Positions 19,928 to 35,750 of a DNA stretch of 64,000 bases are shown one piece after another. A model generated the notes under the pieces. It saw nothing but the letters and a program-made list of their open reading frames with translations, did not search any database and was not told the DNA's origin. The position numbers and the translations under genes are program-made. Each line of letters begins with the position of its first letter. Position 1 is the first letter of the stretch. The stretch comes from Euryarchaeota archaeon SM23-78 (GTDB lineage Archaea > Nanobdellota > Nanobdellia > Woesearchaeales > SM23-78). The stretch spans positions 3,020-67,019 of the forward strand of contig LSSJ01000038.1 of assembly GCA_001595785.1 (NCBI GenBank), given 5' to 3'.

Positions 19928-22900
19928 TTGAAAAAAATGGGTGGGTTTATGAGAATTAAAAAGGAGGTCCTCTTCTTATTCCTACCTATTATCCTGCTAG
20001 TTATAGGCTCTGGAAGTGTTGGTGCCGCTTGTGTAGGTAATAATATCTTTGATTGCTCCCAACACACCACTCAATCATCCTGTGATGCCAGTCCTTGCTG
20101 TGCATGGAATGCGGCCTGGCTTTCAGGGGTTTGTATAAAAAAGAACTGTGCAAACATTGCCTCTGGTTCATGCGGAACCTGTTGTGATCCTGGAACACGA
20201 GATAGAATTGTTTGTGGTTATCAAAACAAGCCAGATGATCATGATGAGATGGACAAATTCTATTGCTGTGAAATATCAGGGGTGACTATTGATTATGGAG
20301 ATACTCATGAAAAAGACCCTGTTAATGTAGATGATTTTGAGCATTGTGATTATGGATATGCTATGTGTGGTTTTAAAAATAGCAAGAATAATGACCAGTT
20401 AACAGCGTTTCATTGTTGTAAAATTGTTGAGCCTGTAACTCTTGGAGCGTTTCGTTTAGCTGATTCAGATCAAGACGGAGGCAGTGCTTATGGTAATTCC
20501 AATGAAGTTGCTGTTCGCGCAACCAATGACCAAAGCGTAGAAGATGGGGTTGTTGCTTTAGACACTCTTCATTTTAGGACAATTACCCGTAATGACGGAA
20601 CCCCAGTATCCATTGATACCTCTAGCAGAGTGCTCGTTGATATTGCTGTTCCTCATGATTCAAAATTTTGTGATGCTGGTAGCCCTCCCCAACCTGAAAA
20701 CACCTTTCCTTGTGATGATTGCAAAACTAATCCTTCTAAACCTGGCTGTGCTGAGTGCTGCCAGTGCGGTGATGGCACGGGTACTGGTACTCCTAGTGGG
20801 GGTGGTGGCTGCTTCCTTGCTGGCACCAAGATTACCATGAGCGGTGGTTCTTTAAAAAACATTGAGGAAATCCAAATAGGAGATGTTGTCAAGGCTTATG
20901 ACAGTGAAAACCAGCGAATGGTTGCTGGCACTGTTACCAAGTTATTCCACCATTCTCCTGATGAAATGCTGCTTTCTTATTATCTTATTATTAATAATAA
21001 TCTTAGAGTTACGCCTGAGCATAGAGTTTTTACTGATAAAGGCCTGGTCTGGGCCAAAGCCTTGGCTTTTGGCTCTGTTTTGATTGATGAGAATGGAGAA
21101 CAGATAATGGTTGCTTCAATTGAAAAAGTGTACGAAAGAGTTCCAACCTATAATTTTGAGGTTGAAGAGTATAATACTTATTTTGCAGAGGGCTTTGCTG
21201 TGCACAATGCAAAAGCAATAGGCGACTGCGGTGACGGCTGGTGTGACCCTACAGAAGACAGCGCTACTTGTTATCAAGACTGCGGACACCTAGCAATGGC
21301 AGGACCCTCTCCTTCCCTGGACTTTGATTTAGGCAGCGCAATAACTGGCTTTGTTATAAAAGATGTTTCTGACTGCCCTAACAATGATATTATTCCTCAG
21401 GAATGTAAGGATATATATACTGTTCATGCAGGTATTTGTGGATGCGGCACCAAGCCAGCTGCTTGTCATTTAAGAGACCAAACGACTTGCCAGGCAGACT
21501 CTGATTGCAGATGGTGCGAACAGCCAACAGACACCATCAATTATCCTTATGCTTTTCCAATTCTTAACAGCACTGCTGCCACTGATTCTGCTTCTTGTGT
21601 TAATATTACCTGGGATGTTTTTAATTGCGGCCAATGCGGCTTTCCAGGAGGAGGAGCGCCTGTTACCCAGAACAATAAGGGTTTTTGTCCTGCAAATAAG
21701 CCTTATTGTGTGAAAGGAGAATGTAAGAGTAAAAGCCAAGCCAAAAGCCTTGGTTGGGACCAGGTTTATATTCCTGAAGAGCTAACTGATAATGGAGATT
21801 TTAACCCTGTTTATCGTTATGATGTAAAAAGCAGTGGAGGAGCCTATTATTCCGAGTGGTATGATAATTCTGGTAATGTGGCTGGTCAAACCCTGCCCAC
21901 TTATCTTTTACATGATATTGGGTCTAATGAAAATATTTGTTCTTTAGCCACTGGCGGTAGTTATAGCTTTGACTCTGCCTATGGTTGTTGTGGTGATAAG
22001 AAATGTTATGAGAAAGGAGGCACTGTTTGTAACACTGGTGCTATTTGTGATGGTAGCCAGTGGCATATTGCTTCTAACACAAACCAGCATGGAGAAGTCT
22101 TTCTTCTTGATAATTGCGAAGTTTTATGGGATAATTATCCTGTTGCTAATGTAGAAGGCACCTTTGTAAGATGTGTTGATAAAGATAGGGAAGGAAACTA
22201 TATGGCTGGGCGTTTGATTGGTACGCCTATTTGTTCTCCATCATACCCAGACTATGAGGGACAAGGCATTGATCCAGGTATTGCAGGCTTTATGCAGTAT
22301 GCTTGCAGTGCTGGTGAATATAGTGTGGGTGGTTTTAGAGCCATGCCTGACAACACGTGTGCTGGACATGGCCAGAATGTAGGAGACCTTCAACAATCAG
22401 ATATTGATGTACATTATGTTTGTGATTTGGATGTGGTTGATGATACTGCGTTTGCTTTTGCATATATTGTGGATACAGGCGGATTAGGTGGGAATAATGT
22501 AGCACCAGGCATTATTGGACGAGAAGGTGAAGACAGAAGTGTTGTGACTTATGAGCAATGTCCTGCAGGCATTACTTCTACCTGGGCAACAGGAGAAGAT
22601 TCTATGAGCACACCAGCTATTGTGCCTTGCCCTGGAAAACTAAAGGTTAATCCTATTAGTTTTAGTAATATCTATTATTATATTGAAAAACCAACCATTC
22701 CTAGGACATGGGGTTGGTCTCTTGGAAGACAATATCCTACTGCTGGCAGAACCCTACAAATTTGTAGAGCGCCTGACCCTACAGACCCAACAGACACGCC
22801 TGGTATGCATTCATTAAGAACCATGAAATATGTGCTTGGAGATGGTAGCAGCATGGGTCGTGTTAATGATCATGAGTATGTTTGTTATACAGATGAGAGC

Positions 22901-25645
22901 CTGCCTCCTCCAGATCAAGATAATGGTGTAAGAGCAAGGATAGGTATTTGTTGTGGAGGAGATAATTGTAATGGTATTCTGGGGGATATTGGCTCTAATG
23001 GAAAAAAATATTATCCTGGTGATTATGTGAATGTGAGTGGTAATGCGCTTTACTGCTTAAACAATGGCAGGTGGAGTTATGACTTGGATGATGAAACTAG
23101 ACAAAGCGAGTGTGCTGCACACTTTAGTGCCACAGACACTTATTGCTGTTCAGAAGGAGATGATACCACTAATTGGCTAAGTGAATCTTATAATGATCCA
23201 AACAGTAGTGTAGGCGCTTGTTTTAAGGGTGAGCCTCAATACAATGACCAGTATCTTAAATATAAAGGTCTTGATTACTCAAACGCATTTGTGAGCAATG
23301 GAACCTTTTATGGCTGTGGTTTTAATGATTCATTATTTATCTCAGAGTTTAAAATAGCAGAAGACCCTGGCTTAATGCCTGTAACAGGCAGCGTGGTTGC
23401 TAGTGCTCCTTTATTTGGCATTACTGGTTTTGGTGTTGAAGACATTCCTCCTTGGAATGATGGTCCTACATGCGAAGCAGCAGGTTGGGGCTGGGCTCTG
23501 GCTGCTGTTGGTACTGCAGGTATAGATTATTGTGATGATGATAATATAAATCAAGGACGCACACCTCAAGGAGGGCCTTATGCTTTGATTTGCACAGGCG
23601 GAGGCACTGGTTACTTATTGAACTCAGCTGTTGGCACTTGGAGTGGTGATAATCCAAGTAGTTGTGTAAATGACTTGACTCCTGGTAAAATAATCAAGCA
23701 GATTAGTTGTAATGGAAATCCTGTGCCTATTACCAATAGTGAAAGATTAAGCGCGACTCATTTAGGAGTATCAGGAGACTCTTCAAGAATAAGGCTTTGT
23801 GATAAGGGTGCAAGTTCGAGTCCTCCTGCCTTGGGCACAGTTCCTGCAAGCTCTTTAAGCACATGTATAAAAGAGTGTATCACAGAGATGTGTCATAACA
23901 CAGCTATAGGGCAAGAGCAGTGTAATGATCTTTGTGATCCGTCTGTACAGACCAAGCCTTGTGATATGAGTGATTGCCTTGGTCTTTCTTCTAACACAAA
24001 TGTTAATTGCAATAAAAATCCTTGCAAGGATTGTGCTGCTTGGTGTAATGTAGCAGCAACCCTTTGTAGTGGTGTTTGTAAACCTAATCATTATGTTGGC
24101 TGGGCTTGTTATCCACCTAGACCAGAACAACCCTTGGAATGTAGGAAATGCACTTACCCAATCATGCATGCAGGAGATACAAAAGAACCCCTTGTTTTCT
24201 GTGAAATGATAAATGATTCCAAGAAAACCACGCTTTGTGATTTAAATGCTTCTGGAAGAGTTAGTCATGCTTGCTTGCAAAACGTTGAGGATTGGCCTAA
24301 CCCAGGCACTGGGTGTAATGATACAAGAACAGGAGAGCCTTTAATAAAAGAAACAGATTATTGTACTATTCTTGGCAGCTCTTTTGGAGATGTTTATTGT
24401 TCTTATAATAATGCCTGGGAGAATACTGGTGGCAAGAATCTTTCTCATAAATCAGTTGTGCCTGGTCCTCTATTGGAGCTCTTTGTAAACATAACTCAGA
24501 ATCCTGATTTGCAACCAGCTAATTGTTGTGAGCCACAACAATGCTGGGATCCATCTGCAGACGGAGGCCAGGGTAAATGCATTCAACCCCAAGCAGGAGC
24601 CACTGTGTTTTACCAGGTGAATGGTACTGATAGATATCAGTGCTTGAATGGGGTATGGATTAATGTGCTTGGTGAAGGACAAAGAACCCCTGATAATTGT
24701 TATGCAGGTTATTGTCCAGAGTCAGGCCAGTGTTTGTATGATATTAATGGGCTTCCTGCTTTTAACAACAATGTTAGCCCTGGTGCACAACCCCAATGTA
24801 TAAAGAGTGGCCAATACATTGGTGACCTTGCTTGTGTTAGTGGTGAGTGGACTACTAGGACCAAGTTGTTGGCTATGAAGCTAGCTTCTATTGTCACAAA
24901 CCAGGTAGATGACTTTGTGCTTATGTGCGCACCTCAAGACGAGATTCTTATTAACCTGCAGAACTTTGGAGCCACTAATAATTATTGCGTGCTTAACTAT
25001 GAAGGTCAGAGGATATTAGGGACCACGCTTAACCAGCCCTTGTATGACCCTGTTACAAACGATGACTTTCTTACTGCTCTTGAGCAGAGCTTCTTATTAT
25101 CATATCCAGATGCAGCCACCCTTGATTTAAGTGGATGCCACAATGCTGATAAATTTCAAAGATGTGTTAATCACGAATACCTAAAAGTATATTATGATAG
25201 TACTAATAAAATGATTATTTTTAGTGATGAAGAAGTTTATGGCTTAACCCCTGGCTTTGGACAAACTATTTGCAATCTTCTTCCTTCCTGGCTCAAATGG
25301 CTCTGCCCAGGACCTACTAATCTTGAGGCAAGCCTAGAAGACCTCCAGCTTTTTAACAAGGTGTATGCTGCTAGGGAAGTGGTTGCAACCACAAGCAGAG
25401 AGGTGTTTGGAGTTGCAGAGCACATGTGTGATGACCCCTTAACCTACCCGCCTGTGTGGCGCTACTCTTTTAACTATACAGGTTTTTCTTCAGCAGACCT
25501 TGATTATCTTGTTAGATATGTTATTGCTAAGGACGCCATAATTACCCAGTCACAGAATCATATTTTTATCAAGGAACCAGACCCAAAGCTTAAGCCACGC
25601 ATCTGGACCTCACTCATACTTCTAAGAAACCCTGAGCAAGAATAA
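19928..25645 (+). CDS. Giant secreted cysteine-rich surface protein (1905 aa) with an internal Hint/BIL domain
   Basis: Uninterrupted 5.7-kb ORF. The TTG at 19928 is the track start; ATG 19937 or 19949 (MRIKKEVLFLFLPIILLVIGSGSVGAAC, a Sec-type signal) is more likely. Cys content is very high throughout, and there is no TM anchor at the C-terminus. Confidence 0.85.
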   Translation: MKKMGGFMRIKKEVLFLFLPIILLVIGSGSVGAACVGNNIFDCSQHTTQSSCDASPCCAWNAAWLSGVCIKKNCANIASGSCGTCCDPGTRDRIVCGYQNKPDDHDEMDKFYCCEISGVTIDYGDTHEKDPVNVDDFEHCDYGYAMCGFKNSKNNDQLTAFHCCKIVEPVTLGAFRLADSDQDGGSAYGNSNEVAVRATNDQSVEDGVVALDTLHFRTITRNDGTPVSIDTSSRVLVDIAVPHDSKFCDAGSPPQPENTFPCDDCKTNPSKPGCAECCQCGDGTGTGTPSGGGGCFLAGTKITMSGGSLKNIEEIQIGDVVKAYDSENQRMVAGTVTKLFHHSPDEMLLSYYLIINNNLRVTPEHRVFTDKGLVWAKALAFGSVLIDENGEQIMVASIEKVYERVPTYNFEVEEYNTYFAEGFAVHNAKAIGDCGDGWCDPTEDSATCYQDCGHLAMAGPSPSLDFDLGSAITGFVIKDVSDCPNNDIIPQECKDIYTVHAGICGCGTKPAACHLRDQTTCQADSDCRWCEQPTDTINYPYAFPILNSTAATDSASCVNITWDVFNCGQCGFPGGGAPVTQNNKGFCPANKPYCVKGECKSKSQAKSLGWDQVYIPEELTDNGDFNPVYRYDVKSSGGAYYSEWYDNSGNVAGQTLPTYLLHDIGSNENICSLATGGSYSFDSAYGCCGDKKCYEKGGTVCNTGAICDGSQWHIASNTNQHGEVFLLDNCEVLWDNYPVANVEGTFVRCVDKDREGNYMAGRLIGTPICSPSYPDYEGQGIDPGIAGFMQYACSAGEYSVGGFRAMPDNTCAGHGQNVGDLQQSDIDVHYVCDLDVVDDTAFAFAYIVDTGGLGGNNVAPGIIGREGEDRSVVTYEQCPAGITSTWATGEDSMSTPAIVPCPGKLKVNPISFSNIYYYIEKPTIPRTWGWSLGRQYPTAGRTLQICRAPDPTDPTDTPGMHSLRTMKYVLGDGSSMGRVNDHEYVCYTDESLPPPDQDNGVRARIGICCGGDNCNGILGDIGSNGKKYYPGDYVNVSGNALYCLNNGRWSYDLDDETRQSECAAHFSATDTYCCSEGDDTTNWLSESYNDPNSSVGACFKGEPQYNDQYLKYKGLDYSNAFVSNGTFYGCGFNDSLFISEFKIAEDPGLMPVTGSVVASAPLFGITGFGVEDIPPWNDGPTCEAAGWGWALAAVGTAGIDYCDDDNINQGRTPQGGPYALICTGGGTGYLLNSAVGTWSGDNPSSCVNDLTPGKIIKQISCNGNPVPITNSERLSATHLGVSGDSSRIRLCDKGASSSPPALGTVPASSLSTCIKECITEMCHNTAIGQEQCNDLCDPSVQTKPCDMSDCLGLSSNTNVNCNKNPCKDCAAWCNVAATLCSGVCKPNHYVGWACYPPRPEQPLECRKCTYPIMHAGDTKEPLVFCEMINDSKKTTLCDLNASGRVSHACLQNVEDWPNPGTGCNDTRTGEPLIKETDYCTILGSSFGDVYCSYNNAWENTGGKNLSHKSVVPGPLLELFVNITQNPDLQPANCCEPQQCWDPSADGGQGKCIQPQAGATVFYQVNGTDRYQCLNGVWINVLGEGQRTPDNCYAGYCPESGQCLYDINGLPAFNNNVSPGAQPQCIKSGQYIGDLACVSGEWTTRTKLLAMKLASIVTNQVDDFVLMCAPQDEILINLQNFGATNNYCVLNYEGQRILGTTLNQPLYDPVTNDDFLTALEQSFLLSYPDAATLDLSGCHNADKFQRCVNHEYLKVYYDSTNKMIIFSDEEVYGLTPGFGQTICNLLPSWLKWLCPGPTNLEASLEDLQLFNKVYAAREVVATTSREVFGVAEHMCDDPLTYPPVWRYSFNYTGFSSADLDYLVRYVIAKDAIITQSQNHIFIKEPDPKLKPRIWTSLILLRNPEQE
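20810..21208 (+). other. Hint (intein/Hedgehog-like, BIL-type) autoprocessing domain, 133 aa, inside the giant ORF
   Basis: GGGG|CFLAGTKITMSGG (block A with Gly-Cys-Phe junction), VTPEHRVF (TxxH block B) and YNFEVEEYNTYFAEGFAVHN|A (blocks F/G ending in His-Asn). The +1 residue is Ala, not Cys/Ser/Thr. There is no endonuclease domain. Confidence 0.8.
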
Positions 25646-26806: not shown

Positions 26807-28702
26807 ATGAAAAAATCCCAGATAACCATGTTTGTAATCCTTGGCATGGTCTTGTTAATAGGATTTATAATTCTTACTGCTATTATACGCAACACCAGCC
26901 CCCCTAAAGGTAATATTCAGGAGATTCTTAAGCAGTTGCAAACAGGCAGTGTAAAGAACCACGTGACTACTTGCATACTACAAACATCTATGGATGGACT
27001 TGAAAGCCTGGGTGCTAATGGAGGAGTGATATATAATTTTGAGGCAGGCACCATTCCTTTTGAGGATAAAATATTAGGGAGGGATTATCTTAATTACACA
27101 TATCTTAATAAACCTTATTTTGTGGATTATGCTTTGAAAAGGAACACCCTTTGTGAGAATGTTAGTTATAAGATTCCTGATTATCCATGCCTAGACACGC
27201 CTTTTAACAGGCTTACCTTTATATATAATGAGGAGTGTTTATTCAACTCTTTCTACTCTGCTTATGACGGCTTCTTTGGTCAGAATAATATGAGCAAACT
27301 GTGCTATATTGCTCGTGAATCCACTTGCGAAGGATATGCAAAAGGCATAGAACTAGCTCTGACCTTGCAAAAACAGTTAGAGGATTATATTGCAAACACC
27401 CTGCCTTTATGTATTGACCTTTCTGCTTTTTCAAGCAGATTAGACGCTAATATAACTGTAGAAGCAGAACCTGTTGTGGAATCCACGATTCATAACTCAG
27501 ACATCCTAGTGGTTGTTAAGTACCCTGTAAAAATTAATTTTAAAGGACAAGACCCAATAACAACAGTGGTTGATTACCAAGTCAACCTTAATATTAGGCT
27601 GGGCTTGATGTATAACTTTATATATAATCTGTATTCCAGGGATTCAAAAAACATAGACTTTAATCTTAATAATGAATTTATTAGTTCTTCTTTTTGGAGG
27701 CAAGGATTAGAGCTGAAAAAGATTAATAATCCTTGCACTACTTGCCCTCGACCTTATTATCATGATGATATTGTTGAGGTGCTTGACAGGAGTTCTATGG
27801 TAAAGGGAAGGCCTTTCTTGTTCAGAACAGCTGTTGAGAATAGGAAACCTGCTCTTGACAAGCTAGAAGATGTTAATATTGACTTAAAAAACACAAACTT
27901 TGTTAATATACGTCTAAATGGTTATGACCCTGATGATACAGGGTTAACATATTATTTCTTGTCTCTTGGAAAAGGAGAAGTCCAGTGTGCTGGCGCAGGA
28001 GGCCTTCCTGCAGGAGCAGTTCCTAGTGGTGGTACTGGTTGGTGTGAGAGTGATGCAAGAGTGTCAGGGGAAAAAGGAGAGCTAGTTCACCCAGGACTTT
28101 TGTGGATGCCTATTGACAGAGTAGATATTGGTTCACATGAAGTAGGAGTCCTTGTTATAGATGATAGTGGGTTGTTTGATTATCAGTTCTTTAGGATTAA
28201 TATTACTGACTCAAGCATGAATAATCCTCCTAGTGAGCAGTGTATTGATGAGTGCATCCTAGAAGCATGCTCTGATTATGCAGGAGAAGCAGACCAATGT
28301 AAAGCTCATTGTTATCATCCTAGCTGTCAGCTAGAGCTGTGTGATGTTACTAGTATTAAGGCTTCTGGTAAGAATCCTTATAAGGACTGTTCAATGTGGT
28401 GCTTTCATGCAGCAAATGCATGTAATATCTGGTGTGATGAGCATTATGTTGGTCCAAAATGCTTTCCTCCTGGCGATAATGTGAACAAAAAAAAGTGTAG
28501 ACAATGCGCATATGGCATTATGCACTCAGGAGAAAGAGAAAAACATGTTGATTGCTCTACCATAAATTCAAAGGCTGCCTGTATTAATAACATGCCTAAT
28601 TGTTTTTGGGTGGAAGAGGAACATAATAATTTTGTAGGTGCTTGTTTTAATGATACTTCCTTAAACAATACAAAATTTCGTGCTTATATAATTACTGAAT
28701 AG
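26807..28702 (+). CDS. Cysteine-rich surface protein (631 aa) with pilin-like class III signal peptide
   Basis: The N-terminus MKKSQITMFVILGMVLLIGFIIL matches the KK[GAS]Q-hydrophobic pattern. A central Ig/cadherin-like segment follows (NGYDPDDTGLTYYF...IGSHEVGVLVIDDSGLFDYQFFRINI). The C-terminal ~120-aa Cys module is shared with the 1905-aa protein. Confidence 0.8.
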   Translation: MKKSQITMFVILGMVLLIGFIILTAIIRNTSPPKGNIQEILKQLQTGSVKNHVTTCILQTSMDGLESLGANGGVIYNFEAGTIPFEDKILGRDYLNYTYLNKPYFVDYALKRNTLCENVSYKIPDYPCLDTPFNRLTFIYNEECLFNSFYSAYDGFFGQNNMSKLCYIARESTCEGYAKGIELALTLQKQLEDYIANTLPLCIDLSAFSSRLDANITVEAEPVVESTIHNSDILVVVKYPVKINFKGQDPITTVVDYQVNLNIRLGLMYNFIYNLYSRDSKNIDFNLNNEFISSSFWRQGLELKKINNPCTTCPRPYYHDDIVEVLDRSSMVKGRPFLFRTAVENRKPALDKLEDVNIDLKNTNFVNIRLNGYDPDDTGLTYYFLSLGKGEVQCAGAGGLPAGAVPSGGTGWCESDARVSGEKGELVHPGLLWMPIDRVDIGSHEVGVLVIDDSGLFDYQFFRINITDSSMNNPPSEQCIDECILEACSDYAGEADQCKAHCYHPSCQLELCDVTSIKASGKNPYKDCSMWCFHAANACNIWCDEHYVGPKCFPPGDNVNKKKCRQCAYGIMHSGEREKHVDCSTINSKAACINNMPNCFWVEEEHNNFVGACFNDTSLNNTKFRAYIITE

Positions 28703-28852
28703 AAAATTAAAGAAAATTAAAAAAAGCAAAACTCATAAAAACGCATATATAAAAGACACACATATTAAAGCCAAAAATTAATTATCAACAATCAAAACAA
28801 AAAGATTTATATATTTACAAAAGGAAAGCAAGAATAAAAAAGGTGGATGAGT

Positions 28853-31828
28853 ATGGTTTATAAAAAGCACATGGTATTGTTAATATTTAGTATCATATTA
28901 TTCTTATTTATTCCTGCTCTTGTAAGTGCTGGCTGCTGTATTTATCAGACCCTAGGGAGCAGTTGTGAGAACAAAGCCAGTGAAGCTCAGTGCACCACAA
29001 CCCCTCAATTATTTGTAACTGATGATTGCACTGACAGACCAGAATGTGTTACTGGGTGTTGCTGTCTTTCTGATATTGGATTAATTGATGTTGGAAGCAC
29101 CAATTACTCCTGTGTTTTTACTTTTATTCCAAGCCCTTCTATTAGTCCTGGTGATAATTGCTCTTGTGCAATATCTACCTATTCTATTTCAGGAACCATC
29201 TATAGAATGACAGGAGGCTATGTGTCTGGTGCAATTGTGAGTGCCGCAAGCATATCAACCACTTCTGCTACTAACGGAGCTTATACCATAAACAATGTGC
29301 CTGAAGGAGATAGTATCACAGTGGCTGCTCATAAAACATCCGAGGGGTGTGCACCTAATAGTGTAACTATTGACCTACATCAGGACAGAACAGGCATTGA
29401 TATTAATCTTAACTGTGAGTGCACACCAGGTGTTTGTGACCCTAATAATAATGCCTATTGTTTATCAAGCAAAACATGGAAAATCTATGATTTAACCAAT
29501 ACATCACAGAAAGACGAGTACTGTCTTAGGTGTGGCTTAGATGACCCTGCTGATTGCGGAGCACCAGCAGAGTGTGTAAGTGGTGATGGAAAGTGCCCTG
29601 TAACTTGCAGCCCAAATGTTGATAGCCCCAAGTACGATTCTGATTGTGTGTGCAGCATGACTCCTAACCGGGCTTGTCCTCGTTGGTGTACCAAGGATAA
29701 TGATGCAGACTGTGCTGCTTATGCAGCTGTGTGCGGAGATGGATTAGTAACCTATCCTTATGAGACTTGTGAAGATAATCCTCAAACAGGACAACTAAGT
29801 CTGTGCAGCCCTAATGATTGCACTAACCCAGGAGAATCAGGTGAGTGTAATTGTGTTGGTTTATCAGCCTGTGGTAATTATATAATAGAATCAGGAGAAG
29901 ATTGTGAGATAGGAATGAAATGCCCAGATGGAAGTGATTGCTGGGATTGCTCCTGTGGCACGCCTCAGTGCCAGGGCAGCGCAATGAATCCTAGTGCTAC
30001 AGCAAGCTTTGATTCTAGTGCAAACGAAATTCTAGTTGAGTGGTCTGTTCTTAGCACTTGTAAAGCAAATGTGCTTTACTATTCTGTGTTTAAGTGTGAA
30101 AAAACACCGAGTTTTGATTGTTCAAGCAAAAGCATGTTTTCGCCATTCCGTCTTAACATACCTAAGTATCAATTTAATATAACAGAGAGTTCTGTTCCTT
30201 CAAATTCTGAATTCTGCTATGTGGTTAATGCTACTTATGCTGGCGGAGAAAAAGGAACGTCTAGTATTAAGTGTGTTAGCACAGGCCATCCTTATTGCAT
30301 GAATGTTCATCCTGATGAGTTCTGCATGAATAATGTGAGGAGCAAGTGTGATGCAGATGATAATATTCAGCCAATAGAGGATTGTAACCCTGACAAGTTT
30401 TGCATGGGACCAAATAGGGATGGCAAGACTTGGTGCTCAGATATAGACGTATGTGACATGTGCAATGGCCTCTACGGCATGTTCTCTAATATTGATTTAA
30501 AAGTCAATGTTTTGGAAGGAGGTGTTATAAGACCTAGGTATTGCCATCCTGGCGCAGGCAGGTATGTAGTAGAGGGTTGTTATCTTGACAGAACAAAAAC
30601 CTTGTTCAGTGCCTTTGATTACTGCTCTAATATTGTAAGTTGCTATGATTATAAATCACAAGAAGCATGTGAAGATAATGCAGATCCTTGTGGAAAAAAT
30701 CAGGATTGTGAATGGGTGTGGTTAGATAACTCTTATCATGAACTAGGAGGAATATGCAGACCTAATGCTCGTGAATTACAGACCTGTGAGCTATGTGATA
30801 ATAAGGATTATAACTGGATAACCCCTGCTTGCACCCCTGAGGTGTGTGCCTTGTTTGGAGATGAGTGCAAGTACCAAGGAATGTTTGCTAACCCAACATG
30901 CACTAAGAAATCCACGCTTGCTTGTATTGACTATACCACACAACAAGAGTGTATAGGAGGAACCGCAGTACATGTGAATGCGGTATATAATAGTAGTGGT
31001 GCCAGGACAGGAGGAACGCACCAACTCACACCTAGCAATGACAAGTTTGGACTTGGAAAATGTTATTGGCATGCAGTCAATAAATGGTGCTTAAGAAACG
31101 CTGATAATTATCCTGAGAATAACCAAGGCACCTATGGTCACGACTGTCCTCTTAATCGCAGAGATTGTGAATCAGACTTTATTAATCCTGAAACCATTAT
31201 TCTGCAATCTGGTTTTAGTCTTTACCCTGCAAATGTAAGAATAGAGTATACTGTGAATGATGATACCTTTCCTAGGAAGGACATCAAGACCTACTTTGGT
31301 TTAGTGCCTGCAGGCACACCTTGTTATCCAGACCAACTAGTTAGTGGCGGAGCCTTTCAAACCCTGGTAGAGGATGATGGAGATAACCTGCCTTATATAG
31401 TATGCTATTATTCAGAAGACTTTGCAAAAAACCTAGAACTCGTGAAGTCATTCCCTATAAATGTTGATGCAAACCCGCCAGTAATTACTATTACTTCGCC
31501 AACAGAGAGCGAGTTCAAAACAGCATCAGGCACCGTGGTGCTAAAAGGAATTACATCAATCGATACAATGAATCTGTGTACTTATACCCATGGTTCAAGC
31601 ACAAAGACCTGTATTAACACCTGCTTTTACGGACAGACGCCTTGTATAAATGAAGTAACAGGAGAATTCAACATAACAGTTAGTGTTCCTGCAAACGGGG
31701 CCTATGATGTGTTGTTTGATGCAGAAGACCGTGCAGGTAACCAGGTTGTTGGCCTGAGTCTGTTAGCTATTTATCGTAATGATACCCAGCCAAGAAAACC
31801 AATTATTATAATAGAGGGTGTACAATAA
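28853..31828 (+). CDS. Cysteine-rich secreted protein (~990 aa) with CarboxypepD_reg-like domain
   Basis: The track start is 28847, but ATG 28853 lies 6 nt after AGGTGG. Sec signal ...IPALVSA|GCC. The segment ISGTIYRMTGGYVSGAIVSA...TNGAYTINNVPEGDSITVAAHK is carboxypeptidase-regulatory-like. CGDG and CTPGVCD Cys motifs are shared with the next gene. Confidence 0.8.
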   Translation: MVYKKHMVLLIFSIILFLFIPALVSAGCCIYQTLGSSCENKASEAQCTTTPQLFVTDDCTDRPECVTGCCCLSDIGLIDVGSTNYSCVFTFIPSPSISPGDNCSCAISTYSISGTIYRMTGGYVSGAIVSAASISTTSATNGAYTINNVPEGDSITVAAHKTSEGCAPNSVTIDLHQDRTGIDINLNCECTPGVCDPNNNAYCLSSKTWKIYDLTNTSQKDEYCLRCGLDDPADCGAPAECVSGDGKCPVTCSPNVDSPKYDSDCVCSMTPNRACPRWCTKDNDADCAAYAAVCGDGLVTYPYETCEDNPQTGQLSLCSPNDCTNPGESGECNCVGLSACGNYIIESGEDCEIGMKCPDGSDCWDCSCGTPQCQGSAMNPSATASFDSSANEILVEWSVLSTCKANVLYYSVFKCEKTPSFDCSSKSMFSPFRLNIPKYQFNITESSVPSNSEFCYVVNATYAGGEKGTSSIKCVSTGHPYCMNVHPDEFCMNNVRSKCDADDNIQPIEDCNPDKFCMGPNRDGKTWCSDIDVCDMCNGLYGMFSNIDLKVNVLEGGVIRPRYCHPGAGRYVVEGCYLDRTKTLFSAFDYCSNIVSCYDYKSQEACEDNADPCGKNQDCEWVWLDNSYHELGGICRPNARELQTCELCDNKDYNWITPACTPEVCALFGDECKYQGMFANPTCTKKSTLACIDYTTQQECIGGTAVHVNAVYNSSGARTGGTHQLTPSNDKFGLGKCYWHAVNKWCLRNADNYPENNQGTYGHDCPLNRRDCESDFINPETIILQSGFSLYPANVRIEYTVNDDTFPRKDIKTYFGLVPAGTPCYPDQLVSGGAFQTLVEDDGDNLPYIVCYYSEDFAKNLELVKSFPINVDANPPVITITSPTESEFKTASGTVVLKGITSIDTMNLCTYTHGSSTKTCINTCFYGQTPCINEVTGEFNITVSVPANGAYDVLFDAEDRAGNQVVGLSLLAIYRNDTQPRKPIIIIEGVQ

Positions 31829-31862
31829 CTTTTATCCTTAATTTTGTTATGTGAGGTGTTTA

Positions 31863-34800
31863 ATGATAAAAAAGAGGTTTACCTTAATTGGAATCCTGCT
31901 CTACTTTTTGATAGGGCTGCTATTAATTCCTTTAGTTTTCTCAGTAATAAATATTGTTGTTGATCAAAACAGAGTGAAGATCACTGCAATTTATGAAGGA
32001 GATGTGGGTTTAGAAAAGGCTAACATAACTGATTTAATAGGAGACCAACTTTTTTATATATATCCTACAAATATAACTGTACAAAAAATATATCAGTCTG
32101 GTAATACAACTCTTAGATTTGGCGGCACAGGTTGTCCTCTTGGCTACTCTCCTTTAGGCATGCCCTATAGACCTTGTTTTATTTTAAACCCAGGGGATTA
32201 TACTTTCTCTGTTTCTGGTAGAACTGCTTTTGGAACTGTGAGGATTGATAATCCTGAGGAGTGTGATGGATATAATCTTAGCAATACTAATTGTAGTACT
32301 TACACAGATCCAAATACAGGAAAGCAACCCTTTGGAGGAGGAACCCTTTCTTGCTATGACTGCTCCTTTGATGTCTCAGGCTGTTTGGTGTGTGAGCCTA
32401 ATCATTGCTCTATTTGTGATAACCAGATTTGTTCTGGTAATGGAAAACAGTGGACCACGATTAATTATACTTGGATGTGCGGTCCAAAAGACAGTAATCT
32501 TGGGACTCTAGGCACAAGCTGTACTCCAGGGGTATGTGATGTTTTTGCAGGCATGGTGTGTGATTCAAATGGGTTCTGGACCAGCACAGGCTTTTGCACT
32601 TATTGCTCTGATGAGGATAGCTCTTGTTATGGTTCATGCACTCCAGGTAACTGTGATATTAGTGCTAAGGCTTTTTGTGACCAAGGCAGCTGGGTTACTC
32701 CTTTAACCAATGATTACTGTGCTGTGTGTGGCAACTATGATAGTGAGTGTCTTGGTGGTTGCTCAGGCAGTGCGTGTGATACTAAGAATAACAAGTATTG
32801 TAGTAGTGGAAGCTGGGTTTCTCCTAGCAGCCTGAATGATTATTGTCAGCGCTGTGGTCAAGTAGATGCTGATTGTGGCATTCCCATATGTATTGATGGA
32901 ACCTGTGATATTTGCAATGATGCTAAGAAGTACTGTAATAATGGGGTGTGGGAGAGTCAAAATTATTGTGATTATAGTAGGTGTGGAAGTTATGATTCTT
33001 GGTGCAATAGAAGCTGTCAACACGGCACATGTGATACTGTTGCTCATAAGTATTGTAGGTATAATCTCTGGGAATCTGACTGGGACACTTATTGTAATAA
33101 TTGTAAATCTCAAGATAGTTCTCTTTACTGCTTAAACCCAGAGGACTGTGGTAATGGAGTGATAGACAGATGGAATGTTAGTGGCTTTTGGGTTGGAGAA
33201 GCATGTGATAAAAAAGGACCTAACCTGAACGGAGCTAGCTGCCTAACCTGGCCTCAGTTTGTAGGAGGCACTCTTGGATGTGCTGATAATTGTTTGAGCT
33301 TTGACAGGAGCAGCTGCATCCTTAGGAACGAGTCTTGTGGTGATGATATTATCCAAGGAGATGATATGTGTGATGGAGATGACCTTGGAGGTAAGGATTG
33401 CACAGACCCAATCTTTAATTTTATGGGAGGCACTCTTGGATGCACCAATGATTGCAAGTATGATACTAGTAACTGCATTCCTTTTCCTGAGTGTGGTGAT
33501 GCTGTTGCTAACCAGGATTCTGAGGACTGTGATAAAGATGATTTAAGAGGAGAAACTTGTGAGTCTTTGGGTTATGCTGGTGGATCTTTAAAGTGTGATA
33601 ATGATTGTAGTTATGATAAATCTGGTTGTTATGGTGGTGTAAAGGTGTGTGGTGATGGTGTTGTTCAGAAGCCTAATGATGCTGGTTTTAATGAGCAGTG
33701 TGATATGGCTGATTTAAATAATATGGATTGTAAGGATTTTGATGGCTATACTGGTGGCACCTTGGTTTGTAATGGTGATTGTACTTATGATTACACTGGT
33801 TGCTCAGGCGGAACCTTTAAATGCAGTGATAGAGTAAAAAATCAGGAGTCAGAGGATTGTGACTATCTTGACCTAGGCGGAGAAACATGCGAATCATTGG
33901 GTTATGATAATGGTACCCTGGAATGTTTTAGTGATTGTACTTTTGATAAGTCTAGGTGCTATTTTAATCCTGGTTCAAAGGTGTGCGGGGATGGTACAGT
34001 TCAACAGCCAAATGATGCTGGTTTTAATGAGCAGTGCGATGTGGCTGACCTAGATGGTGCGAAGTGTAAGGACAAGGATGATTTTACAGGAGGCCTTCTG
34101 ACTTGTCATGGAGATTGTACTTTTAATTATGATATGTGCACAGGAGACAGCGGTGCTGTTTGTGGAAATAACATCCTAGAACCAGGTGAGCACTGTGACG
34201 GAGATGTTGAGGATGATGACTGTACATCTATTGGTAAGAAAAACTTTATTGGAGGAACCCTTAGCTGTTCAGATAACTGTGAGTTTGATACAAGTGATTG
34301 CATAGTAAACATAACTCCTCCTGTGTGTGGTGATGGAATAGTAAATGGCTATGAAGGGTGTGATGGCACTAACCTTGCAGGGCTTACCTGCGGATACTTT
34401 ACCCAGTATGTTAGTGGCACTCTTAAGTGCAATCAGAACTGCACTCTTGATTTTTCTAATTGTTTAAAACAAGGACAAACAGCTGCTCATTGCGAGAATA
34501 ATGTGACAGACGAGGACGAGACAGACCTTAACTGCGGAGGATTATCCTGCCCTGGATGTCCAAATGGTAAGAGGTGCTTGAATCATTCTGATTGTATATC
34601 AAACTATTGTTTATCAAATATATGCACAGAAGCAAGCTGCTCTGATACAATAAAAAACGGTCTTGAAACAGATGTAGATTGTGGAGCCAACTGTCCTTGT
34701 TGTGGCTTAGATATGAGTTGTAATATTAATTCTGACTGTTGCGGTCTTTTCTGCCACCCAGACACTCGCAAATGCGATGTTCCTTCATGTGATGATGGTT

Positions 34801-35750
34801 ATAAGAATGGTGAGGAAACAGATATTGATTGTGGGGATGGTTGCCCAGAAAAATGCGAAGTCGGTCAGGGTTGCGTGTCTCCTAATGATTGTAAATCAGG
34901 TTATTGCGACTTAGGGGTGTGCGCAGTTAACCCAACCCTTGACACAGACATGGACGGAATGCCTGACAAATGGGAGCTGAAATATGGCTTAGACCCTAAT
35001 AATCCTGATGATGCAAACCAAGACATGGACGGTGATGGTTATTCTAATCTTGACGAATATTTAGATGGAACAGACCCAACAGATCCAAATGACCCTCTGC
35101 CTAAGAAGAAGCACACCTTGCAAATCATTTTCTTAATAATAGGGTTGCTCTTAATGCTTGGCAGCATAGGCTTTTTGGTGTACTCAAGAATGGTGCTTGT
35201 ACCCCAGCAAAGAGCTGCTACTAGAAAAGCCCAGCCTCAAAGACCAATGCCCATGGCACAAAGAAGGCCTTTGGTAGGAAGAGGACAACCCAGACCTGGG
35301 AGAAGGATGCCTTTGGCAAGAAGAGGCTTGACCCAGAGACAGGCTTCAAGAAAGAGTTTGTTAAAAGGCTTTGAAAAAGAAGATAAGACAAAAGCACTAG
35401 GTGTTAAAAGGCCTGAAGCAAAACCTTTTGAAAAGAAACCTGTTAAACCAGTACAACCTACAAAGAAAGTAGCAAAAAAACCTGCGGCAAAACCAGCGCC
35501 TGCAGAAGAGTTTATTCCTTTATCAGAACTAGGAGCAAAGCAAAAACCAAAAGAAGAAAAAAAAGAGGCTCCTAAAAAACCTCTTGGCGGAGCATTTGAA
35601 AAACTAAGAGAATTATCAGGAGCCCAGAAGAAAAAGGATGTAAATAAAGAATCAAAACAAGCTGAGGAAGAAGCTGGAAAGGAAACTGGGAAGGAAACAG
35701 GTAAAGAGGCTAAGAAAGCAGAACCCAAAAAAGAAGAAGCTGATAAATAG
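31863..35750 (+). CDS. Repeat-rich cysteine-rich surface protein (~1295 aa) with C-terminal TM anchor and basic cytoplasmic tail
   Basis: The track start is GTG 31851, but ATG 31863 lies 4 nt after GAGGTG (MIKKRFTLIGILLYFLIGLLLIPLVFS). Domains in order: about 7 'C..C...DS.C...C.PG.CD....C....W' units, 8 CGDG-type units, 3 'NG.ETD.DCG' units, Asp-rich thrombospondin-type-3-like Ca-binding repeats, TM IIFLIIGLLLMLGSIGFLVY, and a ~190-aa K/P/R-rich tail. Confidence 0.85.
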   Translation: MIKKRFTLIGILLYFLIGLLLIPLVFSVINIVVDQNRVKITAIYEGDVGLEKANITDLIGDQLFYIYPTNITVQKIYQSGNTTLRFGGTGCPLGYSPLGMPYRPCFILNPGDYTFSVSGRTAFGTVRIDNPEECDGYNLSNTNCSTYTDPNTGKQPFGGGTLSCYDCSFDVSGCLVCEPNHCSICDNQICSGNGKQWTTINYTWMCGPKDSNLGTLGTSCTPGVCDVFAGMVCDSNGFWTSTGFCTYCSDEDSSCYGSCTPGNCDISAKAFCDQGSWVTPLTNDYCAVCGNYDSECLGGCSGSACDTKNNKYCSSGSWVSPSSLNDYCQRCGQVDADCGIPICIDGTCDICNDAKKYCNNGVWESQNYCDYSRCGSYDSWCNRSCQHGTCDTVAHKYCRYNLWESDWDTYCNNCKSQDSSLYCLNPEDCGNGVIDRWNVSGFWVGEACDKKGPNLNGASCLTWPQFVGGTLGCADNCLSFDRSSCILRNESCGDDIIQGDDMCDGDDLGGKDCTDPIFNFMGGTLGCTNDCKYDTSNCIPFPECGDAVANQDSEDCDKDDLRGETCESLGYAGGSLKCDNDCSYDKSGCYGGVKVCGDGVVQKPNDAGFNEQCDMADLNNMDCKDFDGYTGGTLVCNGDCTYDYTGCSGGTFKCSDRVKNQESEDCDYLDLGGETCESLGYDNGTLECFSDCTFDKSRCYFNPGSKVCGDGTVQQPNDAGFNEQCDVADLDGAKCKDKDDFTGGLLTCHGDCTFNYDMCTGDSGAVCGNNILEPGEHCDGDVEDDDCTSIGKKNFIGGTLSCSDNCEFDTSDCIVNITPPVCGDGIVNGYEGCDGTNLAGLTCGYFTQYVSGTLKCNQNCTLDFSNCLKQGQTAAHCENNVTDEDETDLNCGGLSCPGCPNGKRCLNHSDCISNYCLSNICTEASCSDTIKNGLETDVDCGANCPCCGLDMSCNINSDCCGLFCHPDTRKCDVPSCDDGYKNGEETDIDCGDGCPEKCEVGQGCVSPNDCKSGYCDLGVCAVNPTLDTDMDGMPDKWELKYGLDPNNPDDANQDMDGDGYSNLDEYLDGTDPTDPNDPLPKKKHTLQIIFLIIGLLLMLGSIGFLVYSRMVLVPQQRAATRKAQPQRPMPMAQRRPLVGRGQPRPGRRMPLARRGLTQRQASRKSLLKGFEKEDKTKALGVKRPEAKPFEKKPVKPVQPTKKVAKKPAAKPAPAEEFIPLSELGAKQKPKEEKKEAPKKPLGGAFEKLRELSGAQKKKDVNKESKQAEEEAGKETGKETGKEAKKAEPKKEEADK
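33147..34463 (+). repeat. Array of 8 tandem ~45-55-aa CGDG...GGTL.C..DC.(F/Y)D.S.C modules
   Basis: Units 3-4 and 5-6 are a recent two-unit duplication. For example, AATGATGCTGGTTTTAATGAGCAGTG occurs identically near 33670 and 34010. The motif resembles the 'myxococcus cysteine-rich repeat' class (CGDG....E.CD). Confidence 0.75.

What the first reader, a model, noticed from the sequence alone, without database searches (positions are those of the whole stretch)
20810..21208. Hedgehog/BIL-like Hint domain with a Gly-Cys-Phe junction embedded in a secreted 1905-aa archaeal protein
Residues 295-427 of the giant ORF carry all the intein/Hint blocks: CFLAGTKI, TPEH and ...YFAEGFAVHN. Four features argue against a canonical intein. 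The domain is only 133 aa and has no endonuclease. It sits in a non-conserved, signal-peptide-bearing Cys-rich protein. It is preceded by GGGG|CF, the same G|CF junction used by Hedgehog autoprocessing. It is followed by Ala rather than a Cys/Ser/Thr nucleophile. This fits bacterial intein-like (BIL) or Hog-type domains, which cleave or re-ligate surface proteins rather than performing canonical splicing. Autocleavage here would release a ~265-aa N-terminal Cys-rich fragment, or transfer it onto another nucleophile, away from the ~1480-aa C-terminal part. That would be post-translational processing of an archaeal surface protein outside the cell.
Basis: partly seen in the sequence, partly recalled or inferred. 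Interest (0 to 1): 0.75.

Follow-up and report, generated by a model that had tools for sequence, protein, structure and literature searches.

The report
Intein-like self-cutting domain, archaeal surface protein
A 133-residue self-processing Hint domain of the known "bacterial intein-like, type A" kind sits in a glycine linker of a giant secreted protein of a DPANN (Nanoarchaeota-type) archaeon; it is real and probably active, but it is a new member of a known class, not a new mechanism.

Summary
Window 20810-21208 encodes a complete 133-aa Hint domain with Cys1, block B TPEH and a terminal His-Asn, followed by Ala-Lys.

It is best classed as an A-type BIL / Pfam PT-HINT domain. PT-HINT scores 49 bits, above its cut-off, while Intein_splicing and Hint_2 fall below theirs. 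The closest solved relatives, by sequence and by predicted fold, are Tetrahymena BUBL BIL2 and the Clostridium thermocellum BIL. Mini-inteins rank next, and Hedgehog only 31st-35th.

Across 123 related Hint copies:
- Cys1 is present in 106/106.
- The terminal His-Asn is present in 76/78.
- Residue +1 is non-nucleophilic in 74/78; the orthologue has Lys.

The host gene is not "non-conserved". It is a syntenic Nanoarchaeota gene with 344 relatives, and at least three positional orthologues lack the Hint. With the Hint removed in silico, the window protein aligns collinearly with these orthologues. The Hint is therefore a clean insertion in a poly-Gly linker of the variable N-terminal region.

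The Hedgehog reading is not supported, because Gly at -1 is not conserved and no sterol-recognition region follows. The mechanism is inferred: a Cys1 thioester plus Asn cyclisation excise the domain after export. Whether the flanks are then cut apart, re-ligated or conjugated cannot be decided in silico.

Verdict: a new member of a known kind, of moderate interest.

The parts
19937..25645 (+). Host gene: a 1902-aa secreted, Cys-rich giant protein. The mechanical ORF starts at TTG 19928, but ATG 19937 is the likely start.
   Evidence: The MGGF N-terminus is shared with orthologues. The gene is a positional orthologue of P0002, P0060, P0062 and P0070. It has no Pfam family outside the Hint.
19937..20026 (+). 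N-terminal signal peptide or signal anchor (MGGFMRIKKEVLFLFLPIILLVIGSGSVGA).
   Evidence: It is the only hydrophobic segment of the protein in a Kyte-Doolittle scan. Cleavage after VGA is inferred, not tested.
20027..20809 (+). N-extein: a 261-aa Cys-rich module (24 Cys) ending in the Gly linker.
   Evidence: Cys count. It is weakly homologous to the N-modules of the Hint-less P0060 and P0063.
20768..20809 (+). Gly-rich linker GDGTGTGTPSGGGG; its last Gly is the -1 residue of the scissile bond.
   Evidence: An equivalent poly-Gly linker follows the CxxCCxC motif in the Hint-less P0066, P0067 and P0070.
20810..21208 (+). Hint domain, 133 aa, A-type BIL / PT-HINT.
20810..20812 (+). Cys1 (block A), the predicted thioester nucleophile and the only Cys in the domain.
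   Evidence: Invariant in 106/106 homologous copies and in alignment A2. Cys count.
21011..21022 (+). Block B, TPEH (Thr68 and His71 of the domain).
   Evidence: Thr and His are invariant across 31 diverse copies. Coordinates.
21203..21208 (+). Block G terminal His-Asn, the predicted site of Asn cyclisation and C-terminal cleavage.
   Evidence: HN in 76/78 copies and invariant in A2.
21209..21214 (+). +1 Ala and +2 Lys of the C-extein.
   Evidence: Family-wide, +1 is C/S/T in only 4/78 junctions, and Lys is at +1 or +2 in 48/78.
21215..25642 (+). Rest of the C-extein (88 Cys in all): a CGDGWC...CYQDC module, a conserved middle region (about 21389-23356) and a conserved C-terminal 480-aa domain (24203-25642).
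   Evidence: The C-terminal domain models at pLDDT 83 but has no PDB fold match.

Best explanation
The element is an A-type bacterial-intein-like (BIL-A; Pfam PT-HINT) autoprocessing domain. It is inserted in a poly-glycine linker between the variable N-terminal Cys-rich module and the conserved core of a lineage-specific secreted giant protein of a Nanoarchaeota-type (DPANN) archaeon.

Inferred mechanism:
1. The precursor is exported unfolded through Sec by its N-terminal signal sequence.
2. The Hint folds outside the cytoplasm.
3. Cys1, helped by block B Thr/His, converts the Gly(-1)-Cys1 peptide bond into a thioester.
4. The terminal Asn, helped by the penultimate His, cyclises and cuts the Asn-Ala bond.

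The domain therefore excises itself without the trans-esterification step of true inteins, because there is no +1 Cys/Ser/Thr. The thioester is then resolved in one of two ways. Water can hydrolyse it, giving two fragments of about 261 aa and 1478 aa. Alternatively, the freed amino group of the C-extein can attack it, giving a re-ligated protein that has the same architecture as the Hint-less orthologues. In characterised BIL-A domains both outcomes occur and cleavage dominates.

What is shown here: the domain identity, the conservation of its catalytic residues, its status as an insertion and the secretory context. What is inferred: the chemistry and its outcome.
For: Family assignment:
- PT-HINT is the best Pfam hit and lies above its gathering score. 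Intein_splicing (33.4 < 35.8) and Hint_2, the B-type BIL model (24.6 < 28.4), lie below theirs.
- The closest solved sequences are Tetrahymena BUBL BIL2 (E = 1.4e-10) and C. thermocellum BIL 2lwy (E = 1.9e-8). The best intein reaches only E = 5.6e-4.
- An AF2 model (pLDDT 89.9) gives the same order in Foldseek: BIL2 6e-11, 2lwy 3.4e-10 (TM 0.85), mini-inteins >= 3e-8, Hedgehog about 1e-5.
- Internal control: a true LAGLIDADG intein with +1 Thr in the PorB gene of the same window scores the other way round, with Intein_splicing 64.5 bits and PT-HINT 20 bits.

Activity:
- Cys1 is present in 106/106 copies and the terminal HN in 76/78. Block B Thr and His are invariant.
- Between the orthologues P0001 and P0002, the Hint is the best-conserved segment: 69% identity, against 43% for the middle region and 56% for the C-terminal domain.

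No canonical splicing:
- +1 is Ala here, Lys in the orthologue, and C/S/T in only 4/78 junctions.

Insertion:
- The Hint-less proteins P0060, P0062 and P0070 occupy the same syntenic locus: MCM, TBP, [giant gene], Memo, a ~600-630-aa gene, a ~990-aa gene.
- The window protein with the Hint deleted in silico aligns collinearly with P0066, P0067 and P0070 across the junction: CxxCCxC, poly-Gly, CGDGxC.
- Only 2 of the 149 other listed family representatives carry any Hint.

Secretory context:
- There is a single N-terminal hydrophobic segment. The exteins hold 24 and 88 Cys, and the Hint holds only the catalytic Cys.

Definitions and chemistry of BIL-A come from PMC4031507 and PMC7765530.
Against: - No biochemical evidence exists for this protein or for any member of this Hint subfamily.
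- The block F position that is His in most homologues, including the orthologue (EDYHTY), is Asn here (EEYNTY). This could slow C-terminal cleavage.
- The named family is 'bacterial', whereas this organism is archaeal.
- Classical PT-HINT domains lie just upstream of a C-terminal toxin (PMC3482391), which is not the case here.
- Cys1 must stay reduced in an extracellular, disulfide-rich protein.
- The data cannot distinguish cleavage from re-ligation.
Confidence: 0.78

Rival explanations
1. BUBL-like conjugation. The Hint acts as a single-use ligase. The thioester at Gly(-1) is attacked by a lysine epsilon-amine, either of the protein's own C-extein (Lys at +2) or of another surface protein or the host-cell envelope. 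This attaches the N-terminal Cys-rich module by an isopeptide bond.
For: - The closest solved relative by sequence and by fold is Tetrahymena BIL2. It forms a Lys(epsilon-NH2)-C-terminus isopeptide and 'dispenses' its N-extein onto substrates (PMC8616854).
- Lys occupies +1 or +2 in 48/78 family junctions, against a 4.8% background. Here the sequence is Ala-Lys, and the orthologue has Lys at +1.
- The N-exteins often end in a Gly run, as ubiquitin-like domains do.
Against: - The Lys enrichment is inflated by related sequences (the alpha-2-macroglobulin (A2M) group and the tandem arrays).
- Identity to BIL2 is only about 25%.
- The N-extein is not ubiquitin-like.
- No target is known.
- Simple aminolysis by the new alpha-amine explains the same data.
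Confidence: 0.1
2. Hedgehog/Hog-type processing. Only the N-terminal junction is cleaved, and the N-terminal fragment is transferred to a small-molecule nucleophile such as a lipid or sterol-like alcohol.
For: - The junction reads G|CF.
- Pfam Hint (PF01079, the Hedgehog model) is above its cut-off at 37.8 bits.
Against: - The PF01079 match covers only profile positions 10-91 of 213, that is blocks A and B.
- The terminal His-Asn is conserved in 76/78 copies, whereas Hog domains lack it (PMC7765530).
- No adduct- or sterol-recognition region follows, because a Cys-rich module starts 7 residues after Asn.
- Gly at -1 is found in only 38/106 copies.
- Hedgehog structures rank 31st-35th in the fold search.
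Confidence: 0.04
3. A canonical class 1 mini-intein that splices by the standard four-step route, with the +1 Ala being an error or a recent mutation.
For: - Blocks A, B, F and G are all present.
- NCBIfam intein_Cterm is above its cut-off.
- The flanks are collinear with Hint-less orthologues.
Against: - +1 is Lys in the independent orthologue and non-nucleophilic in 74/78 family junctions.
- Pfam Intein_splicing and NCBIfam intein_Nterm are below their cut-offs.
- The insertion is in a low-complexity linker of a variable region, not in a conserved functional motif.
- A real intein in the same window gives the opposite score profile.
Confidence: 0.03
4. A catalytically dead or purely structural Hint, or a PT-HINT that releases a C-terminal toxin of a polymorphic toxin system.
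For: - PT-HINT is the best Pfam family.
- The block F His is replaced by Asn in this copy.
Against: - All primary catalytic residues are intact and invariant in the family, and the domain is the most conserved segment between the orthologues.
- The Hint is near the N-terminus.
- The 1478-aa C-extein is a conserved, mostly Hint-less family and is not polymorphic.
- The downstream gene is a syntenic Memo homologue, not an immunity gene.
Confidence: 0.05

Closest known systems
A-type bacterial intein-like (BIL-A) domains (Amitai et al. 2003; Dassa et al. 2004; C. thermocellum BIL, PDB 2lwy)
   Same: - About 130-140 aa Hint fold with no endonuclease.
- Cys1, block B TxxH and a C-terminal His-Asn.
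- No +1 nucleophile.
- Located in a variable region of a secreted, lineage-specific protein.
- 2lwy is among the top matches by sequence and by fold.
   Different: - The host is a DPANN archaeon, not a bacterium.
- The insertion lies in a poly-Gly linker and is demonstrably present or absent among positional orthologues.
- Activity is untested.
BIL2 of the Tetrahymena thermophila BUBL1 polyubiquitin-like locus (PDB 6y75/6tmm)
   Same: - It is the best match by sequence (E = 1.4e-10) and by fold (E = 6e-11, TM 0.77).
- It has Cys1 and a terminal Asn.
- The N-extein ends in Gly, and Lys lies close to the C-terminal junction.
   Different: - BIL2 is eukaryotic and cytoplasmic, is flanked by ubiquitin-like domains, and is shown to form isopeptide bonds.
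- Here the flanks are Cys-rich extracellular modules, and no conjugation has been shown.
Pfam PT-HINT (PF07591), the pre-toxin HINT peptidase of polymorphic toxins
   Same: - It is the best-scoring Pfam model, matching 121 of 137 profile positions.
- The context is a Sec-exported large surface protein.
   Different: - Classical PT-HINT lies immediately before a variable C-terminal toxin and comes with an immunity gene.
- Here it lies near the N-terminus of a protein with a conserved C-terminal region, and there is no immunity gene.
Canonical mini-inteins (e.g. Ssp DnaB, Mtu RecA splicing domains)
   Same: The same fold and the same blocks A, B, F and G; the domain is a precise in-frame insertion relative to insert-free orthologues.
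   Different: - There is no +1 Cys/Ser/Thr.
- The insertion is in a non-conserved linker.
- Asn replaces the intein block F Asp (YN instead of YD).
- Scores are weaker.
Hedgehog/Hog autoprocessing domains
   Same: The Hint fold and a Gly-Cys-Phe N-terminal junction.
   Different: - This domain keeps the terminal His-Asn and lacks a sterol-recognition region.
- Gly at -1 is not conserved in the family.
- It is only a distant fold match.

Membership tests
HINT superfamily | Hint fold with blocks A (Cys/Ser1) and B (TxxH) | tested here: met
   Pfam PT-HINT and Hint are above their cut-offs. The AF2 model has pLDDT 89.9, is all-beta, and gives Foldseek probability 1.0 to more than 50 Hint structures. 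C1, T68 and H71 are invariant.
A-type BIL | Conserved C-terminal His-Asn (block G) | tested here: met
   The domain ends ...FAVHN. HN is present in 76/78 related copies. The feature is defined in PMC4031507 and PMC7765530.
A-type BIL | No Cys/Ser/Thr nucleophile at +1 | tested here: met
   +1 is Ala here and Lys in orthologue P0002. Only 4/78 family junctions have S or T, and none has a true Cys.
A-type BIL | Sits in a variable region of a non-housekeeping, often secreted protein; no homing endonuclease | tested here: met
   The Hint lies in the Gly linker of the variable N-terminal region and is absent from positional orthologues P0060, P0062 and P0070. The domain is 133 aa with no insert. 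A signal peptide is present.
A-type BIL | Closer to known BIL-A domains than to inteins, B-type BIL or Hog domains | tested here: met
   The PDB sequence and fold rankings put BIL2 and 2lwy first. Hint_2 and Intein_splicing are below their cut-offs. No explicit phylogeny with reference sets was built.
A-type BIL | Autocatalytic N- and C-terminal cleavage, with or without ligation | not testable with these tools
   Needs expression and mass spectrometry.
A-type BIL | Bacterial host (as named) | tested here: not met
   The window encodes archaeal MCM, TBP, PolD DP2 and an RNase P p30-like protein. The relatives are named Nanoarchaeota or Nanoarchaeia. This is a matter of distribution, not a biochemical criterion.
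PT-HINT of polymorphic toxins | Located immediately upstream of a variable C-terminal toxin domain, with an adjacent immunity gene | tested here: not met
   The Hint is at residues 292-424 of 1902. The C-terminal region is conserved in 344 relatives. The downstream gene is a syntenic Memo homologue.
Canonical intein | +1 Cys/Ser/Thr, and insertion in a conserved site of a conserved protein | tested here: not met
   +1 is Ala or Lys, and the insertion is in a poly-Gly linker. By contrast, the PorB intein in the same window has +1 Thr, a LAGLIDADG domain and Intein_splicing at 64.5 bits.
Hedgehog/Hog domain | Hint followed by a sterol/adduct-recognition region; no terminal His-Asn; conserved Gly-Cys-Phe | tested here: not met
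   HN is present, and a Cys-rich module begins 7 residues later. Gly at -1 is found in 38/106 copies. PF01079 matches only profile positions 10-91 of 213. Hedgehog structures rank 31st-35th in Foldseek.
B-type BIL | Pfam Hint_2-type sequence; lacks intein block G | tested here: not met
   Hint_2 scores 24.6 bits against a cut-off of 28.4, and block G HN is present.

The most novel reading that the evidence does not exclude
The Hint is not just a self-excising passenger but a single-use, ATP-independent ligase. After export, its Gly-thioester would be captured by a lysine amine, as in the ciliate BUBL BIL2 domain. The target could be Lys429 of the same chain, an S-layer protein or a host-cell surface protein. 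This would covalently anchor or cross-link the Cys-rich N-terminal module. That would give DPANN archaea, and CPR bacteria that carry the same Hint subfamily in alpha-2-macroglobulin-like and other giant surface proteins, a sortase-free way of making covalent attachments to their hosts.
Probability: 0.1. Interest if true: 0.8.

Novelty: new member of a known kind. Interest (0 to 1): 0.4.

Why it matters
BIL/PT-HINT domains are described as bacterial (plus the ciliate BUBL case). This is a well-supported example in an archaeal (DPANN) secreted protein. It comes with an unusually clean natural experiment: positional orthologues with and without the domain.

The Hint belongs to a subfamily shared by DPANN archaea, Thermoplasmata and CPR bacteria. 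In that subfamily the catalytic residues are invariant, +1 is almost never a nucleophile, and Lys is strongly enriched next to the C-terminal junction.

If the domain is active, it adds post-export autoprocessing to the little-understood giant surface proteins of ultra-small episymbionts. That processing could be shedding, re-ligation or covalent transfer. The domain is also a compact, Cys-poor Hint that might be useful for protein engineering.

It does not reveal a new mechanism, and NCBI already labels the orthologue 'Hint domain-containing protein'.

Tried and rejected
1. Canonical intein: rejected. The +1 residue, the sub-threshold intein models, the linker insertion site and the opposite score profile of the genuine PorB intein in the same window all argue against it.
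2. Hedgehog-type: rejected. HN is conserved, there is no sterol-recognition region, Gly at -1 is not conserved and the fold rank is low.
3. Polymorphic-toxin release: rejected on architecture and synteny.
4. Function of the host protein, which led nowhere:
   - Pfam finds no family in 30 members of the host family, apart from occasional lectin/CBM-type accessory domains.
   - The conserved C-terminal 480-aa domain models confidently (pLDDT 83) but has no significant PDB fold neighbour (best E = 7e-3, TM about 0.1).
5. A scan of GTDB species-representative genomes with the C-terminal domain found nothing.
6. Compositional signs of recent insertion are not informative. The Hint has GC 0.388 against 0.42 for the flanks, and GC3 0.35 against 0.29.
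7. tRNA and Rfam scans of the window found nothing.
8. Literature: Makarova et al. 2019 (archaeal polymorphic toxins) is not held. Full-text searches for 'Hint domain' with 'Candidate Phyla Radiation', and for 'intein-like' with 'Nanoarchaeota', found nothing relevant; 'Hint domain' with 'DPANN' found one paper, on intein homing.
Full report
**1. The observation**

It lies inside the uninterrupted ORF 19928-25645. The domain is preceded by ...CAECCQCGDGTGTGTPSGGGG and followed by AKAIGDCGDGWC....

The likely start is ATG 19937. It gives MGGFMRIKKE..., and orthologues begin MGGLL or MGGFL. The protein is then 1902 aa and the Hint is residues 292-424.

The window is archaeal. It encodes MCM, TBP, PolD DP2 and an RNase P p30-like protein, and its GC content is 38%.

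**2. Is it a Hint domain, and of which kind?**

Pfam scores for the domain with short flanks:

| Model | Bits | Cut-off |
|---|---|---|
| PT-HINT | 49.3 (E = 7.9e-13) | 27.7 |
| Hint (PF01079) | 37.8, N-terminal half of the profile only | 29.7 |
| Intein_splicing | 33.4 | 35.8 |
| Hint_2 (B-type BIL) | 24.6 | 28.4 |
| Vint | 22.4 | 27 |

In NCBIfam, intein_Cterm is above its cut-off and intein_Nterm is just below.

Against PDB sequences the best hits are as follows:
- BIL2 of the Tetrahymena BUBL1 locus (6y75/6tmm), E = 1.4e-10.
- The C. thermocellum bacterial intein-like domain (2lwy), E = 1.9e-8.
- An Rhs-type protein (8w20).
- True inteins begin only at E = 5.6e-4.

An AlphaFold2 model built on 31 homologous domains has pLDDT 89.9. 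Foldseek against the PDB ranks the matches in the same order: BIL2 (6e-11, TM 0.77), 2lwy (3.4e-10, TMt 0.85), mini-inteins (3e-8 and weaker), and Hedgehog 1at0/6tyy only at ranks 31-35 (about 1e-5).

The window supplies its own control. ORF 56238-58268 (-) is a pyruvate:ferredoxin oxidoreductase beta subunit interrupted by a 368-aa intein (56748-57851). That intein has a LAGLIDADG domain and +1 Thr. It scores the opposite way, with Intein_splicing 64.5 bits and PT-HINT 20 bits.

**3. The Hint subfamily**

A search with the whole protein found 58 proteins. Only one, P0002 (Candidatus Nanoarchaeia, N-terminally truncated), is an orthologue of the whole protein. The others share only the Hint.

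These others are giant proteins from Thermoplasmata, CPR bacteria (Levybacteria, Parcubacteria), Dehalococcoidales and Omnitrophica. They carry alpha-2-macroglobulin (A2M), PKD, FG-GAP or RHS domains, and often several Hints in tandem.

Over the 123 Hint copies:
- Cys1 is present in 106/106 copies.
- The terminal His-Asn is present in 76/78.
- The +1 residue is K 26, A 16, D 7, E 6, Q 5, and S or T in only 4.
- The -1 residue is G 38, S 24, V 15, T 12.

In a 31-sequence alignment, the invariant positions are Cys1, block B Thr and His, one Gly, and the terminal His-Asn. The block F motif is Y-N, where inteins have Y-D. The block F His of most members is Asn in this copy but His in the orthologue.

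Lys occupies +1 or +2 in 48/78 junctions, against a 4.8% background. Related sequences inflate this count.

**4. The host protein and the insertion**

A full HMMER scan with the last 1200 residues found 344 relatives, 174 of them at E <= 1e-10. They share a middle region and a C-terminal domain of about 480 aa. The members that carry names are Nanoarchaeota hypothetical proteins. No Pfam family covers them.

Only 2 of the 149 other listed representatives have any Hint (P0111 and P0150). In both it lies near the N-terminus; in P0150, whose N-terminus is complete, it directly follows the signal sequence.

The gene is syntenic. In the window, the order is MCM, TBP, a ThiI/THUMP gene, an RNase P p30-like gene, [giant gene], Memo, a 631-aa gene and a 993-aa gene. 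The same downstream neighbours flank P0002. The same neighbourhood flanks the Hint-less P0060, P0062 and P0070.

P0002, which has the Hint, is 75% identical in the C-terminal domain to the Hint-less P0062. It is only 57% identical to the window protein. Hint presence therefore does not follow host-protein relatedness. The variable N-terminal cassette, the Hint itself, or both have been exchanged or lost repeatedly.

Deleting the Hint in silico gives ...CAECCQC-GDGTGTGTPSGGGG|AKAIGD-CGDGWCDP..CYQDC...GSAITGF. This aligns collinearly with two Hint-less proteins:
- P0070: ...CELCCKC-SSGGGGGGGGG-TCGDGICES..CPRDC...DNLITAN.
- P0067: ...CSTCCNC-ATTGGGGGDDD-RCNNDGTCDAD..CPDDC...DNLLTGF.

The Hint is thus a clean insertion in a poly-Gly linker between two Cys-rich motifs. 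The poly-Gly run is a linker feature and not a Hedgehog-like signal.

Between the two Hint-bearing orthologues, the Hint is the best-conserved segment: 72/105 identical (69%), against 43% for the middle region and 56% for the C-terminal domain. This argues for selection on the Hint's function.

**5. Secretory context**

The only hydrophobic segment is the N-terminal one. The N-extein has 24 Cys, the C-extein 88, and the Hint only Cys1.

A protein with an N-terminal signal sequence must remain one chain until it is translocated. Processing is therefore expected after export. This step is inferred.

**6. Mechanism**

Type A BILs have the terminal His-Asn and lack the +1 nucleophile. They form the N-terminal thioester and cleave at the C-terminus by Asn cyclisation. 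The flanks may then be ligated when the freed amine attacks the thioester, although cleavage products dominate (PMC4031507; PMC7765530).

All the residues needed for these two steps are present here and invariant in the family. I therefore conclude that the domain excises itself. The evidence does not decide between two fragments (about 261 aa and 1478 aa) and a re-ligated protein. Both outcomes are compatible with the Hint-less orthologues for two reasons:
- In P0060 and P0063 the N-module and the core are contiguous.
- P0061, P0062 and P0065 lack the N-module entirely.

A third possibility is raised by the closest solved relative, BIL2. BIL2 forms Lys isopeptide bonds and transfers its N-extein to substrates (PMC8616854). 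The Lys enrichment at +1/+2 fits this reading. I give it about 10%.

**7. Comparison and novelty**

The domain meets every sequence- and context-based criterion of A-type BIL except the 'bacterial' label. It does not meet the criteria of a canonical intein, a Hog domain, a B-type BIL or a pre-toxin HINT in the architectural sense (PMC3482391).

NCBI already names the orthologue 'Hint domain-containing protein'. Full-text searches found no paper that links Hint or BIL domains to CPR bacteria or Nanoarchaeota, and only one paper, on intein homing, that holds both 'Hint domain' and 'DPANN'.

Verdict: a new member of a known kind, of moderate interest. The value added here is the presence/absence polymorphism among the syntenic orthologues and the definition of a CPR/DPANN/Thermoplasmata Hint subfamily.

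**8. Dead ends**

- The conserved C-terminal domain models well (pLDDT 83) but has no PDB fold neighbour.
- The scan of GTDB representative genomes found nothing.
- Base composition gives no clear sign of a recent insertion.

Noticed in passing
window 56238-58268 (-); intein at 56748-57851: The pyruvate:ferredoxin oxidoreductase beta subunit (TPP-binding) is interrupted by a canonical 368-aa intein (GYMN|CLSLDALI...GIVVHN|TGIQ). The intein has a LAGLIDADG endonuclease and +1 Thr. It served as an internal control, and I did not check whether this insertion site is already catalogued.
   Followed up: partly
homologues P0017, P0019, P0020, P0029, P0003-P0009: Several homologues carry tandem arrays of catalytically intact Hint domains. 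P0017 has seven back-to-back copies joined by 1-3-residue linkers (HN|KGG|CF). P0019, P0020 and P0029 have four copies directly after a signal peptide, followed by a TM segment; P0019, the one inspected, also has a Tim44-like domain. Thermoplasmata giants carry 4-7 copies near the C-terminus. The purpose of these self-excising arrays is unexplained.
   Followed up: partly
homologues P0028, P0043 and about 20 other A2M-family proteins: In alpha-2-macroglobulin-like proteins, including one from the CPR bacterial group Levybacteria, the same Hint subfamily is inserted between the bait-region domain and the A2M domain. The junctions are conserved as (E)GGGG|CF...YVHN|[EQD]KG. A self-cleaving bait region would be an unusual way to trigger an A2M.
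   Followed up: partly
window 24203-25642 (+) and 21389-23356 (+): The host protein defines an uncharacterised Nanoarchaeota family (344 relatives) of giant Cys-rich secreted proteins. Its conserved C-terminal domain of about 480 aa models at pLDDT 83 but matches no PDB fold and no Pfam family.
   Followed up: yes
window 26807-35750 (+): Three further large ORFs (631, 993 and 1299 aa) lie downstream of Memo. They have no Pfam hit above its cut-off (the best is a sub-cut-off CarboxypepD_reg match). They are syntenic with the neighbours of P0002, P0060, P0062 and P0070, and one homologue has faint DUF4215 hits. Together they look like a conserved block of surface-protein genes.
   Followed up: no
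Hint C-terminal junctions across the family; window 21209-21214: Lys is strongly enriched at +1/+2 after the terminal Asn: 48/78 junctions against a background of about 5% per position. The window has Ala-Lys and the orthologue has Lys at +1. The count is not corrected for relatedness, and its mechanistic meaning is unknown.
   Followed up: partly
window 21173-21175 (residue 122 of the Hint): The block F position that is His in most homologues and in the orthologue (EDYHTY) is Asn in this copy (EEYNTY). This could modulate the rate of C-terminal cleavage.
   Followed up: no
homologues P0150, P0111: Two distant members of the host family carry a different, longer Hint near the N-terminus. In P0150 it comes directly after the N-terminal signal/anchor sequence (..FVFGGGS|CLLPGT...FLVHN|KGD); P0111 is N-terminally partial. 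The Hint may release the protein from a membrane anchor in some lineages.
   Followed up: no
window 19928 vs 19937: The mechanical ORF begins at TTG 19928. The conserved MGGF N-terminus of the orthologues points instead to ATG 19937 as the real start.
   Followed up: yes
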